This document shows positions 32,853-33,584 of a stretch of DNA of 64,000 bases, piece by piece; the stretch's first letter is position 1; every line of letters starts with the position of its first letter. A program made the translations under genes and the position numbers. Source of the stretch: a virus (Duplodnaviria > Heunggongvirae > Uroviricota > Caudoviricetes); the IMG/VR virus record IMGVR_UViG_2778261540_000003; one strand, 5' to 3'. Under the pieces are notes generated by a model. The model did no database searches. It saw nothing but the letters and a program-made list of their open reading frames with translations, and was not told the DNA's origin.

Positions 32853-32860
32853 GCACAACA

Positions 32861-32926
32861 GGTAAGGGTATTTTGCGACGTCGGAGATCGCCGAGCTTGG
32901 CAGAGGGTTCGAATCCCTACGAAGTA
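32861..32926 (+). other. tRNA-like relic (T-arm plus acceptor-like stem, no anticodon arm)
   Basis: GGTAAGGGT ... GGGTTCGAATCCC ... ACCCTTACC: canonical T-arm enclosed by a 9-bp stem, no CCA, too short for a full tRNA. Confidence 0.35.
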
Positions 32927-33584
32927 CCCTTACCGTTGTGATGAAGTGCAGCTCTTTGAAGCAACCAGAAGATAAGCATCTGGCTTCACAACATAAACCG
33001 CAGGAACGACCAATAAACGGTAGTCCGTATGGAGAACACCCCGTTGAGGAAGAGGCCTGGCCGGAACCGTAACCGGCACTACAACGTTGAGAACACTGGC
33101 GTAACGGGGTCATATCCCAATCTACGAATAAATGTTGCGTTGCAGCGTGACAACCAGTGTTCTCAACATTGTGGTGAATGCACAGGCTGATGTGCCGCAA
33201 CTACAGTAGTGCGCGCTTTGCGGGGCTTGCTACAACCCTGTGTCGGAGTTCAGCACCGACCATCACAGTTTGATTCTCTGGCATGAGCATAACGCTGAAA
33301 TAAGTCCAGCCTGGTGCGGCCCGATCACCCGCCGTTAGCTCCACGAAACGGAGCACGTAACAGGTAAGAGCATTCTCCTGTAACGGGTTCATATCCCAAT
33401 CTACAGGTCCACCAAGAATGCTCTTTCCGTTGCGGTGAATGCGGCTAAGCGCACGCGGGGAAATGGTTATATCAGTCCATTCATTTCTCCTTGTTTCCCC
33501 GTCCACGGTGGATAACCAGCCAAAGGACACCGGGAGGCACCCGGCACCGCAGCTTTTTTATTCGTTAAATAATGGAGTGAGAGG

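What the first reader, a model, noticed from the sequence alone, without database searches (positions are those of the whole stretch)
32853..33580. Structured repeats and tRNA-like relics flanking the tRNA genes
Beyond the two intact tRNAs the region holds a tRNA-like relic (32861-32926), three copies of an ACAGGTAAG(G/A)G motif (near 32421, 32856, 33358) and two paralogous long hairpins whose loops contain GG(G)TCATATCCCAATCTAC (T-arm-like) followed by TG(T/C)GGTGAATGC (33088-33180 and 33355-33440). No credible ORF exists here. This suggests decayed tRNA genes, small structured RNAs, or a recombination scar in a tRNA island.
Basis: seen in the sequence. Interest (0 to 1): 0.5.

Follow-up and report, generated by a model that had tools for sequence, protein, structure and literature searches.

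The report
Modular structured RNAs beside P1 tRNAs
The stretch after the two tRNA genes of this phage P1 genome is not junk or dead tRNAs: it is a tandem array of a conserved, two-part structured RNA module (a long hairpin plus a cloverleaf-like element) found in phages and prophages across the Proteobacteria, absent from Rfam except for one sub-type and left unannotated in the E. coli RefSeq rows I saw; its function is unknown.

Summary
The window is a phage P1 variant. The finding lies in the untranslated leader of the C1-repressed ban operon.

The repeats are the constant frames of a module. H is a long hairpin with a conserved base and a hypervariable interior. E follows it directly. E has a 7-bp closing stem with an invariant inner GGUG/CACC, a 5' hairpin (GCGCA-GGCUGA-UGCGC), a variable core of about 15-250 nt, and a 3' hairpin (GCCGG-AGAUCAGCA-CCGGC) that abuts the closing strand. 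The two loops are complementary.

Covariation supports all four helices. A model built from 31 type-A elements of non-P1 contigs scores window E2 at 68 bits and E3 at 24.5 bits. E3 is also a sub-threshold Rfam STnc100 hit (37.8 bits; gathering score 47).

The E frame occurs in about 20% of complete E. coli genomes and in genomes of alpha-, beta- and gammaproteobacteria and one Geobacteraceae MAG. Rfam 15 has no match for type A.

H1 carries a conserved tRNA-like D-arm plus T-arm that is not a tRNA. The annotated plp and upl ORFs are unsupported.

The inferred function is that these are co-transcribed, processed stable RNAs in which the frames act as scaffolds. This has not been tested.

The parts
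32000..32045 (+). Pban promoters (P1ban/P2ban) with the C1 operator Op72 (Obanab). This is the only promoter annotated upstream of the array.
   Evidence: Transferred from the NC_005856 annotation through a 99.3% identical alignment. No sigma-70-like site was found anywhere in 31900-34800.
32140..32241 (+). dicF-like region, ending in a strong intrinsic terminator (stem 32206-32225, then T7).
   Evidence: NC_005856 misc_feature; terminator scan.
32414..32496 (+). H0: H-type hairpin upstream of the tRNAs. Its 5' arm is the first ACAGGTAAGGG copy.
   Evidence: Fold -39.3 kcal/mol, z = -4.9; motif count.
32677..32694 (+). E-type 3' hairpin remnant (GCCGG-AGACGUAC-CCGGC), 4 nt before tRNA-Asn.
   Evidence: Read from the sequence. 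Resembles the E 3' frame. Weak, by eye only.
32699..32774 (+). tRNA-Asn (GTT)
   Evidence: ARAGORN; Rfam tRNA, 74.5 bits.
32777..32852 (+). tRNA-Thr (TGT)
   Evidence: ARAGORN; Rfam tRNA, 72.9 bits.
32854..32940 (+). H1: long stem carrying a tRNA-like interior, with a D-like hairpin (32875-32891) and a canonical T-arm (32904-32918) but no anticodon arm.
   Evidence: Fold z = -5.6. Seven distinct homologues in unrelated phages; 27 consensus pairs, 7 with compensatory changes. Not called a tRNA.
32935..32992 (+). E1: short, atypical E-like element (GUUGUGAUGAAG...CUUCACAAC) with a conserved hairpin CCAGA-AGAUAAGCA-UCUGG.
   Evidence: 80-95% identical copies in Sashavirus, P22-like and Klebsiella phage-plasmid genomes. 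The Sasha copy scores 18.8 bits with model R1; the window copy was not detected.
32993..33076 (+). Linker X, ending in hairpin GCCGG-AACCGUAA-CCGGC (33060-33077).
   Evidence: Homologous stretches in Citrobacter phage phiNP and IMG/VR contigs. Its own fold is not significant, z = -0.5.
33077..33176 (+). H2: divergent H hairpin with a perfectly paired stem. Its interior holds the first GGGGTCATATCCCAATCTAC copy.
   Evidence: Fold -49.2 kcal/mol, z = -6.5. Compensatory differences from the consensus H stem seen by inspection.
33170..33267 (+). E2: canonical type-A E element. Closing stem 33170-33176 with 33261-33267; 5' hairpin 33180-33195; 3' hairpin 33242-33260; complementary loops GCUGA (33186-33190) and UCAGC (33250-33254). 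Its 5' strand overlaps the 3' strand of H2 by 7 nt, so the two pairings exclude each other.
   Evidence: Model R1, 68.1 bits, E = 9e-15, full length. The MFE fold reproduces the architecture. Family covariation.
33268..33355 (+). Linker Y, with small hairpin GCUCC-ACGAAAC-GGAGC (33338-33354).
   Evidence: 82-84% identical copies in Klebsiella prophages, downstream of a tRNA and upstream of H. The hairpin covaries (GCCAC/GUGGC) in L014.
33356..33434 (+). H3: consensus H hairpin (AACAGGUAAGAGCAUU...AAUGCUCUUUCCGUUG). Its interior is paralogous to that of H2.
   Evidence: Fold z = -5.5. The same scaffold with at least 55 different interiors in IMG/VR contigs.
33431..33551 (+). E3: type-B E element (STnc100/PasD-like). 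Closing stem UGCGGUG/CACCGCA; 3' hairpin CCGGG-AGGCA-CCCGG (33530-33544). A T-run follows at 33554-33559.
   Evidence: Rfam RF02076, 37.8 bits (gathering score 47), E = 7e-6, model positions 31-147. Model R1, 24.5 bits, E about 1e-3.
33585..34629 (+). First protein-coding genes after the array: a 78-aa membrane-like ORF and a 275-aa SPFH/Band-7 protein. tRNA(CAT) (34657-34732) and ban (35013-36383) follow.
   Evidence: ORF list; Pfam PF01145, E = 1e-30; ARAGORN; annotation of relatives.

Best explanation
The 1.5-kb untranslated leader of the P1 ban operon is a polycistronic non-coding RNA. Two tRNAs are interleaved with three to four copies of a modular structured RNA.

Each module has two parts:
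- H, a long hairpin with a conserved base and an interchangeable interior. In H1 the interior mimics a tRNA elbow.
- E, which follows directly. E is cloverleaf-like. It has a 7-bp closing stem, a 5-bp 5' hairpin, a variable core, and a 5-bp 3' hairpin stacked on the closing stem. The two hairpin loops can pair with each other.

Shown here: the modules exist, they are under structural selection, they belong to a family spread through phages and prophages of many Proteobacteria, and E3 links that family to the Hfq-associated prophage sRNAs STnc100/PasD.

Inferred: the array is transcribed from Pban together with the tRNAs. Host tRNA/rRNA-processing nucleases (RNase P, RNase E, RNase III) cut at the module boundaries. 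The constant frames act as processing and stability scaffolds that present the variable interiors, cores or 3' tails as trans-acting small RNAs.
For: Identity and setting:
- The window is 100% identical to P1 MH422554 and 99.3% to NC_005856.
- The region lies between Pban/Op72 and ban, with no internal sigma-70-like promoter.

Structure:
- Hairpin z-scores are -4.9 to -6.5.
- On 45 viral E frames, 99.6% of cells pair, 10 of 22 pairs change on both sides, and 0/500 shuffles reach the observed values.
- On 47 genomic E frames, the three outer closing pairs, which my selection did not constrain, show all four Watson-Crick types with 13-23 double changes each. The loop-loop helix is 98.7% paired, with GCUGA/UCAGC changing to GCCGA/UCGGC and to GUCGA/UCGAC.
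- Model R1 scores E2 at 68.1 bits and E3 at 24.5 bits.
- A 3'-anchored hairpin precedes E in 135 of 143 unique units, with unrelated stem sequences.

Distribution:
- At least 120 IMG/VR contigs per scan, both scans capped.
- 1115 of 5426 complete E. coli genomes, with no annotated feature under the match in any of the 40 rows listed.
- At least 120 species genomes matched the 5' frame (capped). A complete frame was found in 75 of them, and these span several proteobacterial classes.

Link to tRNA processing:
- tRNAs in the viral loci are on the same strand as the module in all but one case.
- tRNAs start 5-10 nt after E in several loci, and in Massilia a real tRNA occupies the H slot.

Link to sRNAs:
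- E3 hits STnc100 at 37.8 bits.
- PasD1 and PasD2 are STnc100-like and are abundant RNAs confirmed by northern blot that interact with targets on Hfq (RIL-seq) (PMC8550237).
- A terminator-like site lies within 150 nt after E in 53 of 177 units, against 11 of 177 at random positions.
Against: - No expression or processing data for P1 were found, so every processing step is inferred.
- The thermodynamic z-scores of E2 (-0.8), E3 (-2.2) and the linkers are unremarkable.
- No antisense target longer than 12 nt exists in the 64-kb window for any interior or core.
- A strong terminator sits between Pban and the array, so transcription into the array is itself unproven.
- The near-invariance of 22-26-nt frame sequences across proteobacterial classes is more than a passive scaffold would need. 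It points to a specific, conserved binding partner that this explanation does not name.
- PasD has no H and begins at its own promoter, so processing is not required in every family member.
- Model R1 did not detect PasD or window E1.
Confidence: 0.45

Rival explanations
1. The module is a cis-acting leader device. E, alone or with H, binds a conserved host machine or a small ligand as the RNA is made. It then controls read-through of downstream terminators or Rho, working like a put-type antiterminator or a riboswitch aptamer. This would allow long untranslated or terminator-rich leaders (Pban to ban, PL to the early genes, Q to the lysis genes) to be transcribed.
For: - Position. The module lies directly downstream of a CI-like repressor gene on the same strand in 28 of 127 loci, and upstream of lysis genes in 12.
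- In L136 and L141 a PL-like promoter with an operator palindrome is followed by an approximately 600-nt structured leader. That leader holds H, E and two terminators before the first early gene. BUCT554 has the same layout.
- Terminators are enriched after E.
- In P1 a terminator precedes the array and a T-run follows it.
- Near-invariant junction and loop nucleotides, combined with a variable peripheral domain and loop-loop pairing, are aptamer-like.
- GUUGU can pair either with the ACAAC upstream of H or with the ACAAC downstream of E, which gives alternative structures.
Against: - E has no sequence or architectural similarity to HK022 put (a V-shaped pair of stems; PMC9378689). No H/E motifs occur in HK022 22-30 kb. 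The putL-like RNA annotated in HK639 is also unrelated.
- Three tandem copies interleaved with tRNAs are not what a single antiterminator needs.
- In PasD the E frame is the 5' domain of an Hfq-associated trans-acting sRNA (PMC8550237).
- The hypervariable cores have no obvious role in this model.
Confidence: 0.2
2. The modules are decoys or mimics aimed at tRNA-directed host functions. H1-type tRNA elbows and the acceptor/T-arm-like 7+5-bp stack of E would titrate or misdirect a tRNA-binding nuclease or defence system. They would accompany the phage tRNAs that replace cleaved host tRNAs.
For: - H1 keeps a D-like arm and a canonical T-arm across unrelated phages.
- A canonical T-arm motif occurs in 11 of 144 unique regions upstream of E, against 0.05 in shuffles.
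- E has 7 firmly covarying closing pairs directly stacked on a 5-bp hairpin, the same helix lengths as a tRNA acceptor/T minihelix.
- The modules sit next to tRNA arrays whose content varies between relatives: Asn, Thr, Tyr, Ser, Arg, Ile.
- Hypervariable inserts are typical of arms-race loci.
Against: - Most H interiors are not tRNA-like.
- Only 5 of 75 genomic E elements have a tRNA within 400 nt downstream; my upstream count returned none and missed the one known upstream case (Massilia), so it is unreliable.
- The E loops (GGCUGA, AGAUCAGCA) are not D- or T-loops.
- The CCA enrichment after E (43 of 100 tails) sits at variable distance from the stem and belongs to a conserved CC(A/C)AAUC tail, so it is not a tRNA 3' end.
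- No defence or anti-defence gene is consistently linked to the module.
Confidence: 0.1
3. The region is evolutionary debris: decayed tRNA genes and recombination scars in a tRNA island, with no function of its own.
For: - P1 relatives differ by whole-module insertions, deletions and swaps whose endpoints lie in the repeated frames: SJ46, RCS47, P7, Ro157c2YLVW.
- H1 has tRNA-like arms.
- In Massilia a real tRNA occupies the H slot.
Against: - Compensatory changes preserve four E helices and the H stems.
- The frames are near-identical in distant proteobacterial classes.
- Model R1, trained on non-P1 contigs, finds E2 at 68 bits.
- Debris would not keep 22-26-nt blocks invariant while the sequence between them is entirely replaced.
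Confidence: 0.04
4. The minus strand encodes the proteins Plp (putative lipoprotein, 32823-33200) and Upl (33201-33530), as annotated in reference P1, and the repeats are incidental.
For: - Open frames of 125 and 109 codons exist on the minus strand.
- They are annotated in NC_005856 and RCS47.
Against: - No Pfam family reaches significance.
- The plp frame runs antisense through tRNA-Thr.
- The ends and lengths of the ORFs change with every module swap in relatives.
- Substitutions between P1 and CMS-2020a in the upl frame fall 1, 7 and 9 at codon positions 1, 2 and 3, which is not the pattern of a constrained protein.
- No promoter-like site was found on either strand.
- None of the 40 E. 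coli RefSeq records listed has an annotated feature under the E3 region.
Confidence: 0.03

Closest known systems
STnc100 (Rfam RF02076) / PasD1-PasD2 prophage sRNAs of Salmonella and pathogenic E. coli
   Same: E3 (33431-33551) aligns to STnc100 model positions 31-147. It shares the closing stem (UG-GGUG ... CACC-CA), the GAAU junction and the CCGGGAGGCACCCGG 3' hairpin. PasD1 and PasD2 give similar sub-threshold STnc100 hits. Like those sRNAs, E3 lies in a phage operon leader. STnc100 lies 75 nt downstream of stx2B (PMC12370729), and PasD lies between Q and the holin gene.
   Different: E3 scores below the gathering threshold (37.8 against 47). It lacks the 3' CU-rich seed plus terminator module (model positions 148-206) and has no promoter of its own. 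It is preceded by an H hairpin and sits in a tandem array with tRNAs. E2 and most family members (type A) are not recognised by the STnc100 model at all.
C4 antisense RNA of P1/P7 and CI RNA of P4 (Rfam RF01695): cloverleaf-like phage RNAs cut out of leader transcripts by RNase P
   Same: The resemblance is in mode of action, as inferred. These are small structured phage RNAs with a closing stem formed by their 5' and 3' ends. They are excised from a longer leader transcript by tRNA-processing enzymes, and variable loops carry their specificity (established knowledge of C4/CI, from memory). The genuine C4 gene lies in the same window at 13066-13151.
   Different: There is no sequence or model similarity: C4 does not hit the region. 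No complementary target for the variable parts was found in the window. RNase P cleavage of H/E is untested.
HK022 put / HK639 putL-like antiterminator RNAs
   Same: The position is the same: just downstream of early or late promoters and upstream of terminators, in lambdoid phages that may lack N.
   Different: put is an approximately 72-nt V-shaped pair of stems with a triplex (PMC9378689). E is a closed multi-helix junction with pairing loops. The HK639 putL-like RNA shows no sequence similarity, and no H/E motifs were found in HK022 22-30 kb. Antitermination by E is untested.
Large or ornate phage-associated RNAs found next to tRNA genes (GOLLD, ROOL) and the stable RNAs C and D of the T4 tRNA cluster
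   Same: All are phage- or prophage-borne structured RNAs of unknown function, repeatedly found beside tRNA genes and co-oriented with them (from memory, for the known families).
   Different: H+E modules are much smaller (about 150-350 nt), occur in tandem, and have hypervariable inserts within invariant frames. No Rfam family, including ROOL and GOLLD, matches them.
tRNA (Rfam RF00005)
   Same: H1 has a D-like hairpin with GG in its loop, and a T-arm with the canonical UUCGAAU loop placed next to the 3' strand of the long stem. E has a 7-bp closing stem stacked on a 5-bp hairpin.
   Different: There is no anticodon arm. The 'acceptor' stem of H1 is about 20 bp long. ARAGORN and Infernal do not call it a tRNA. 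The E loops are not D- or T-loops.

Membership tests
tRNA (RF00005) | Cloverleaf with a 7-bp acceptor stem, D-arm, anticodon arm and T-arm, detectable by ARAGORN or the Rfam tRNA model at or above 29 bits | tested here: not met
   Only 32699-32774, 32777-32852 and 34657-34732 are called. Nothing is called in 32853-33580, even at E <= 10.
tRNA (RF00005) | T-arm: 5-bp stem with a 7-nt UUCRANY loop | tested here: met
   For H1 only: (G)AGGG-UUCGAAU-CCCU at 32904-32918. The H2/H3 loops (GUCAUAU, UUCAUAU) do not fit.
STnc100 (RF02076) | Score at or above the Rfam gathering threshold (47 bits) | tested here: not met
   E3 scores 37.8 bits, E = 7e-6. P1 relatives score 38-43 bits. PasD1 and PasD2 themselves score 37.7 and 41.4 bits.
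STnc100 (RF02076) | Full-length architecture: 5' frame plus 3' extension with terminator (model positions 1-206) | tested here: not met
   E3 covers only model positions 31-147. PasD covers 1-206.
STnc100/PasD | Expressed, Hfq-associated trans-acting sRNA | not testable with these tools
   Shown for PasD in EPEC (PMC8550237). No data exist for P1 E3.
E element, type A (family defined here; model R1) | 7-bp closing stem with an invariant inner GGUG/CACC and covarying outer pairs | tested here: met
   E2: UGUGGUG (33170-33176) pairs with CAUCACA (33261-33267), with one G-U. Family covariation.
E element, type A (family defined here; model R1) | 5' hairpin GCRCA-GGCUGA-UGYGC after an AAU junction | tested here: met
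   E2: AAU, then GCACA-GGCUGA-UGUGC at 33177-33195. E3 lacks it.
E element, type A (family defined here; model R1) | 5-bp 3' hairpin with a 9-nt loop AGWUCAGCA directly abutting the closing strand, with loop-loop complementarity GCUGA/UCAGC | tested here: met
   E2: GUCGG-AGUUCAGCA-CCGAC at 33242-33260. The loops at 33186-33190 and 33250-33254 are complementary.
E element, type A (family defined here; model R1) | Significant score with a covariance model trained on non-P1 members | tested here: met
   E2 scores 68.1 bits, E = 9e-15. E3 scores 24.5 bits, E about 1e-3 (borderline). E1 is not detected.
put-type antiterminator RNA (HK022, HK639) | Sequence or structural similarity to putL/putR or to the HK639 putL-like RNA | tested here: not met
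   No shared motifs. The architecture differs (PMC9378689).
put-type antiterminator RNA (HK022, HK639) | Promotes terminator read-through by binding RNAP | not testable with these tools
   Needs transcription assays.
C4/CI antisense RNA (RF01695) | Match to the C4 model, and complementary target sites in the same phage | tested here: not met
   C4 hits only 13066-13151. No complementary stretch longer than 12 nt exists for any interior or core.
Bacterial Y RNA (YrlA, RF02553) | Match to the YrlA model: tRNA-like domain on a long Ro-binding stem | tested here: not met
   The only YrlA hit (25.6 bits; gathering score 69) lies over the two real tRNAs, not over H1.
Known self-cleaving ribozymes that process phage tRNAs (HDV-like/theta, hammerhead, twister and others in Rfam) | Match to any Rfam ribozyme model | tested here: not met
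   No such hit at E <= 10 in 31500-35500, nor at E <= 0.1-1 in other loci. Self-cleavage itself is not testable here.
Protein-coding genes plp/upl (P1 annotation) | Conserved ORF with a protein-like substitution pattern or a family match | tested here: not met

The most novel reading that the evidence does not exclude
E is a previously undescribed class of phage-borne functional RNA. Its near-invariant junction and pairing loops would bind one universally conserved host component (RNA polymerase, RNase P or another part of the tRNA machinery, or a small-molecule signal). Through this, phages of many Proteobacteria would control read-through or maturation of their operon leaders and tRNA arrays. 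H, or a real tRNA, would be its obligatory upstream partner.
Probability: 0.2. Interest if true: 0.85.

Novelty: new variant of a known kind. Interest (0 to 1): 0.62.

Why it matters
P1 is one of the most studied phages, yet 1.5 kb of its ban-operon leader is annotated only as two tRNAs plus two doubtful ORFs.

This analysis shows that the leader is built from a modular RNA family with the following properties:
- It is under clear structural selection.
- It occurs in about a fifth of complete E. coli genomes and in phages and prophages of several proteobacterial classes.
- It keeps 22-26-nt blocks almost invariant while everything between them is replaced.
- It is missing from Rfam, apart from a partial, sub-threshold overlap with STnc100.

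The analysis also gives the Hfq-associated virulence-linked sRNAs PasD and STnc100 an evolutionary context: their 5' domain is one sub-type of this frame.

If the frame binds a conserved host machine, it would be a new handle on how temperate phages mature or regulate non-coding leaders and tRNA arrays. It would also be a ready-made scaffold for displaying arbitrary RNA inserts. At the least, it corrects the P1 annotation and supplies a covariance model for annotating hundreds of prophages.

Tried and rejected
1. boxA/nut reading of E1. GCUCUUUGAAGCAA looked like boxA, and a homologue sits 24 nt upstream of N in phage SPN9CC. That stretch is not conserved in the SPN9CC or Sasha copies, so I dropped the idea.
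2. Homology to put RNA. No shared motifs with HK022 22-30 kb or with the putL-like RNA annotated in HK639.
3. Antisense targets. The longest complement to any interior or core within the 64-kb window is 10-12 nt, which is chance level. The 16-nt hits are only the H2/H3 paralogy.
4. An encoded tRNA-like 3' CCA on E. CCA is enriched after E (43 of 100 tails), but its distance from the stem varies and it belongs to a conserved CC(A/C)AAUC tail. It is not used as evidence.
5. H as a slot for complete tRNAs. In the IMG/VR set the long interiors are not tRNAs. A real tRNA fills the slot only in rare cases such as Massilia.
6. A conserved neighbouring protein that could be the partner of E. None was found. 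The commonest neighbour is a CI-like repressor in 28 of 127 loci, which reflects position and not partnership.
7. Literature. Exact frame sequences occur in no paper of the library. No P1 transcriptome covering this leader was found. The search for tRNA-like prophage sRNAs returned nothing relevant.
8. Two genome hits to the 22-nt frame (Brevibacterium, a Chloroflexota MAG) are chance matches inside coding sequence with no 3' frame. Only 75 of the 120 genome loci have a complete frame under my strict rule.
9. Integron attC, retron and known-ribozyme readings were considered from memory. I set them aside because no integrase or reverse transcriptase is nearby and the topology differs. Only the Rfam-encoded families were formally tested.
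Full report
**What the window is.** The 1.56 kb around the finding is 100% identical to Punavirus P1 MH422554 and 99.3% identical to reference P1 NC_005856. Mapped onto the reference annotation, the order on the + strand is:
- the end of dmt;
- the Pban promoters with the C1 operator Op72 (about 32000-32045);
- a 'dicF-like region' (32140-32241) ending in a strong intrinsic terminator (stem 32206-32225, then T7);
- tRNA-Asn (32699-32774) and tRNA-Thr (32777-32852);
- the finding (32853-33580);
- a 78-aa ORF and an SPFH/Band-7 protein (33585-34629), where reference P1 has tciABC;
- tRNA(CAT) (34657-34732);
- ban (35013-36383).

The finding therefore lies in the long untranslated leader of the C1-repressed ban operon. 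No sigma-70-like promoter is predicted anywhere in 31900-34800, against 2.7 expected.

**Check of the observation.**
- ACAGGTAAGRG occurs three times (32419, 32858, 33360), all on the + strand and nowhere else in 64 kb. The expectation is 0.04, and 0/100 shuffles reach three.
- The 25-nt repeat (33101-33125 and 33380-33404, 96% identical) and the TGYGGTGAATGC repeat (33170 and 33431) are confirmed.
- Four hairpins fold far better than shuffled controls: H0 32414-32496 (z = -4.9), H1 32854-32940 (z = -5.6), H2 33077-33176 (z = -6.5), H3 33356-33434 (z = -5.5).
- The 'relic' inside H1 has a canonical T-arm (AGGG-UUCGAAU-CCCU, 32904-32918) and a D-like hairpin (GCGA-CGUCGGAGA-UCGC, 32875-32891). 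ARAGORN does not call it a tRNA, and neither does the Rfam tRNA model at E <= 10.
- The H2/H3 loop GGG-NNCAUAU-CCC only superficially resembles a T-arm.

**What the repeats are.** I aligned the leader with P1 relatives: reference P1, RCS47, Ro157c2YLVW, P7, D6, SJ46 and the unrelated 109-kb phage CMS-2020a. The relatives differ by whole modules, not by point decay.
- RCS47 carries one extra hairpin-plus-element unit after H1.
- P7 and Ro157c2YLVW have a different interior inside the same H1 stem.
- SJ46 has lost exactly the segment between the two 25-nt repeats.
- P7, D6 and CMS-2020a have a tRNA-Ser(UGA) after the second element.
- Ro157c2YLVW and CMS-2020a have a tRNA-Tyr between Asn and Thr.

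A sensitive BLAST of the finding against phage genomes shows that each sub-segment has its own homologues in unrelated temperate phages. These include Uetakevirus BUCT554, Sashavirus, P22-like phages, Klebsiella, Cronobacter and Citrobacter lambdoids, and SSU5-like phage-plasmids. Reading those loci gives the unit:
- H = CAAC-A-GG-U-AAGAGCAUUG ... interior ... CAGUGCUCUU-U-CC-GUUG
- followed immediately by E = UGUGGUGAAUGCGCAGGCUGAUGCGC ... core ... AAGCCGGAGAUCAGCACCGGCCACCACA.

**The H hairpin.** The same stem base carried at least 55 unrelated interiors of 30-100 nt.

A second scan was anchored on the E 5' frame only, so that H was not constrained. In that set a 3'-anchored hairpin, mostly 60-145 nt long, precedes E in 135 of 143 unique units (median z = -3.3). 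Different lineages have completely different stem sequences. H is therefore conserved as a structure.

Window H2 is such a divergent H. By inspection its stem differs from the consensus by paired changes, for example AGAACA/UGUUCU in place of AGAGCA/UGCUCU.

A minority of interiors are tRNA-like. A 4-bp stem plus UUCRANY loop occurs in 11 of 144 unique regions upstream of E, against 0.05 in shuffles. The caveat is that some of these may be real upstream tRNAs.

The H1 type is found in seven distinct sequences from P1, BUCT554 and IMG/VR contigs. All share a long stem, a 4-bp D-like hairpin, a 13-nt linker and a T-arm. Of 27 consensus pairs, 7 keep pairing through changes on both sides. H1 is thus a conserved tRNA-elbow-like RNA, not a decaying tRNA gene.

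**The E element.** E has constant frames around a hypervariable core; in the elements collected here total length ran from about 65 to over 300 nt. Its architecture is:
- a closing stem;
- an AAU junction;
- a 5-bp hairpin, GCGCA-GGCUGA-UGCGC;
- the core;
- a 5-bp hairpin, GCCGG-AGAUCAGCA-CCGGC, directly abutting the 3' strand of the closing stem.

The two loops are complementary (GCUGA/UCAGC).

I counted pairs on 45 distinct viral frames. 99.6% of cells are paired, 10 of 22 pairs change on both sides, and 0/500 shuffles reach the observed values. Sliding the partners by one to three columns drops pairing to 24-52%. The loop-loop helix covaries to GUCGA/UCGAC.

My element finder required the closing stem and the 3' hairpin to pair, so I repeated the count on 47 frames from bacterial genomes. 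There I took five flanking nucleotides on each side regardless of pairing. The three outer positions of a 7-bp stem show all four Watson-Crick types, with 13-23 double changes and 0-5 unpaired cells each. Positions 8 and 9 pair in about half the sequences. The inner GGUG/CACC is invariant. The loop-loop helix is 98.7% paired, with one further compensatory variant (GCCGA/UCGGC).

E is therefore a closed multi-helix junction in which a 7-bp stem stacks on a 5-bp hairpin, the helix lengths of a tRNA acceptor/T minihelix. Its loops are not D- or T-loops.

**Membership of the window copies.** I built covariance model R1 from 31 type-A elements taken from IMG/VR and genome contigs.
- E2 (33170-33267) scores 68.1 bits (E = 9e-15) over the full model.
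- The extra RCS47 element scores 70.3 bits.
- The P7 element before tRNA-Ser scores 50 bits.
- E3 (33431-33551) scores 24.5 bits (E about 1e-3).
- The E1-like element of phage Sasha scores 18.8 bits (E = 0.03).
- Window E1, PasD and an HK639 type-B copy are not detected.

Independently, E3 is the only non-tRNA Rfam hit of note in the region: STnc100 (RF02076), 37.8 bits against a gathering score of 47, E = 7e-6, model positions 31-147. P1 relatives give 38-43 bits.

E3 is thus a 'type B' frame that links type A to STnc100. It keeps the closing stem, the AAU junction and an abutting 3' hairpin (CCGGG-AGGCA-CCCGG), but lacks the type-A 5' hairpin and the loop pairing.

The MFE fold of E2 reproduces the comparative architecture, but its energy is not exceptional (z = -0.8).

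The 5' strand of E2 (33170-33176) is also the 3' strand of the base of H2. More generally, GUUGU can pair with an ACAAC upstream of H or with one downstream of E. The two helices are therefore alternatives.

**Relation to known sRNAs.**
- Zhu, Shabalina and Storz (bioRxiv 10.64898/2026.05.13.724894) report that STnc100 and PasD are structurally related prophage sRNAs.
- Pearl Mizrahi et al. (PMC8550237) showed that PasD1 and PasD2 are abundant and confirmed by northern blot, and that they interact with targets in an Hfq-dependent manner (RIL-seq).
- PMC12370729 places STnc100 75 nt downstream of stx2B.

I fetched the PasD loci of E2348/69 using the RIL-seq coordinates in the supplement. PasD consists of its own promoter, a type-B E frame at the very 5' end (GCAUGGUGAAUCCUCC ... 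GGGAGGCGCCAUGC), a CU-rich seed and a terminator. It hits STnc100 at 37.7-41.4 bits. The known family therefore corresponds to one sub-type of the E frame plus a 3' effector module. Type A has no Rfam match at E <= 0.1-1 in any locus tested. No paper in the library contains the frame sequences.

**Distribution and context.**
- The H/E junction plus 5' frame is present in 1115 of 5426 complete E. coli genomes: 969 chromosomal places and 376 on plasmids. None of the 40 rows listed had an annotated feature under the match.
- The E3 region is present in 603 genomes, mostly on P1-like plasmids. The 40 rows listed are mostly unannotated under the match too; the exceptions are a few hypothetical proteins, one tRNA-Ser and one CRISPR array.
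Complete frames were found in 75 of these. They include Enterobacterales, Pseudomonas, Aeromonas, Marinobacterium, Achromobacter, Pandoraea, Comamonas, Nitrosomonas, Pelagibacterium and a Geobacteraceae MAG. Some MAG assignments may be binning errors, and two hits were chance matches inside coding sequence.
- In the viral loci, tRNAs lie on the same strand as the module in all but one case. 27 of 72 loci with enough flank have one within 1 kb, a count dominated by P1-likes.
- In several loci a tRNA starts 5-10 nt after E. In Massilia a real tRNA fills the H slot and another follows E. Among the 75 genomic elements only 5 have a tRNA within 400 nt downstream; my upstream count returned none and missed the Massilia case, so it is unreliable.
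- The commonest neighbour is a CI-like repressor immediately upstream on the same strand (28 of 127 loci). Lysis genes follow in 12 loci. Other units are stand-alone morons between portal and terminase genes on the opposite strand.
- In L136 and L141 a PL-like promoter with an operator palindrome is followed by a conserved ~230-nt upstream domain, a small hairpin, H, E, a tail and two terminators before the first early gene.
- A terminator-like site lies within 150 nt after E in 53 of 177 unique units, against 11 of 177 at random positions.

**The annotated ORFs.** Reference P1 annotates plp and upl on the minus strand across this region. Several results argue against them:
- Neither ORF has significant Pfam support.
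- plp runs antisense through tRNA-Thr.
- The ORF ends move with every module swap in relatives.
- The 17 substitutions between P1 and CMS-2020a in the upl frame fall 1, 7 and 9 at codon positions 1, 2 and 3.

The plp test rests on only three substitutions, so it is weak on its own.

**How it most likely works.**

Shown:
- The region is a tandem array of H and E modules.
- The modules are under structural selection.
- The array is co-oriented with tRNAs and has no detectable promoter of its own.
- It is linked by homology to Hfq-associated prophage sRNAs.

Inferred (confidence about 0.45):
- The array is transcribed from Pban after C1 is inactivated.
- It is matured together with the tRNAs by RNase P, RNase E and RNase III.
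- It yields stable small RNAs in which the constant frames serve as processing and stability scaffolds and the variable interiors, cores or tails provide specificity.

Weak points:
- There are no expression data.
- A strong terminator lies between Pban and the array.
- No target is found in the window.
- The frames are far more conserved in sequence than a passive scaffold requires.

That last point, together with the promoter-proximal, terminator-rich contexts, keeps a cis-acting reading alive at about 0.2. In that reading E acts as an antiterminator or as a riboswitch-like sensor of a conserved host component. However, E is unrelated to HK022 put and to the HK639 putL-like RNA in both sequence and architecture. 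A tRNA-mimic or decoy role (about 0.1), plain debris (about 0.04) and coding for Plp/Upl (about 0.03) are the remaining rivals.

**Novelty and verdict.** E3 is a divergent, sub-threshold relative of a known sRNA family. I could not find the H+E module, the type-A frame with its covarying loop-loop pairing, or its breadth across Proteobacteria described in Rfam 15 or in the searchable literature. I rate it a new variant of a known kind (phage-encoded structured small RNAs), with a real chance that its mechanism is new. Function remains untested; the decisive experiments are listed separately.

Noticed in passing
window 32140-32241 (terminator stem 32206-32225 plus T7): The 'dicF-like region' ends in a strong intrinsic terminator only about 190 nt after Pban. 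Pban should therefore give a short DicF-like RNA, and reaching the tRNAs and ban requires read-through.
   Followed up: partly
window 33520-33553: A CRISPR array in the chromosome of E. coli strain CH4796 (NZ_CM166348.1) has a 34-nt stretch 100% identical to the 3' frame of E3 (hit H129). A host spacer therefore targets this non-coding element.
   Followed up: no
window 12946-12998, 13066-13151, 16608-16782: Rfam gathering-level hits to c4-a1b1, C4 antisense RNA and sok antitoxin RNA. These are the known P1 immI elements and a hok/sok-type locus.
   Followed up: no
window 33585-34629: This P1 variant carries a 78-aa membrane-like ORF plus an SPFH/Band-7 protein where reference P1, P7, D6 and SJ46 have tciA/tciB/tciC. 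RCS47 and Ro157c2YLVW share the SPFH version, annotated there as 'putative serine protease'.
   Followed up: partly
L002, L003, L005, L007 and IMG/VR P1-like loci: The tRNA content of the island varies between relatives. Tyr(GTA) is inserted between Asn and Thr in some. Ser(TGA) follows the second E in P7, D6 and CMS-2020a. Arg(TCT) replaces Asn in some contigs.
   Followed up: partly
L006 (SJ46) and L004 (RCS47), against window 33112-33390 and 32929: SJ46 has a deletion whose endpoints lie in the 25-nt H2/H3 repeat. RCS47, 813R1 and JL22 carry one extra H+E module of about 196 nt. This points to module-level recombination at the conserved frames.
   Followed up: yes
window 32964-32992, against L010 about 2440-2475: The E1 hairpin (CAACCAGAAGAU ... 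CAUCUGGCUUC) is a circular permutation of the anticodon-arm and variable-loop sequence of the tRNA-Gly(UCC) of Klebsiella phage ST147-VIM1phi7.2. It may be chance or an old tRNA-derived piece.
   Followed up: no
L237 (Massilia sp. TS11) 4485-4793; L261 (Geobacteraceae MAG): In Massilia the order is tRNA, E, tRNA, with the first tRNA in the H slot and flanked by CACAGC/GCUGUG. In the Geobacteraceae contig a tRNA-like sequence sits inside the E core and a tRNA(CAT) starts 8 nt after E.
   Followed up: partly
L136, L141 and L008 (BUCT554), about 300 to 70 nt upstream of E: A further conserved upstream domain (ACGGCRUAUGGCACAUGYGUCGU ... GGUAGCCGGAAUGUGCAAGUCA) and a covarying small hairpin (CCUGG-GAAGAGA-CCAGG, or CCUCG...CGAGG) lie between the promoter and H in stand-alone and cI-adjacent units. 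They may belong to the same RNA.
   Followed up: no
L356 (HK639) 44808-44925: HK639 has a type-B E element in its late leader, between Q and the holin gene, among four annotated terminators. Its annotated putL-like antiterminator RNA (34187-34312) is unrelated to E.
   Followed up: partly
L007 (Escherichia phage CMS-2020a, 109 kb) 2746-3569: An unrelated large phage carries the same tRNA/H/E island (Asn, Tyr, Thr, H2-E2, H-E, Ser), 93% identical to P1 over 33087-33377. The whole island therefore moves between phage lineages.
   Followed up: partly
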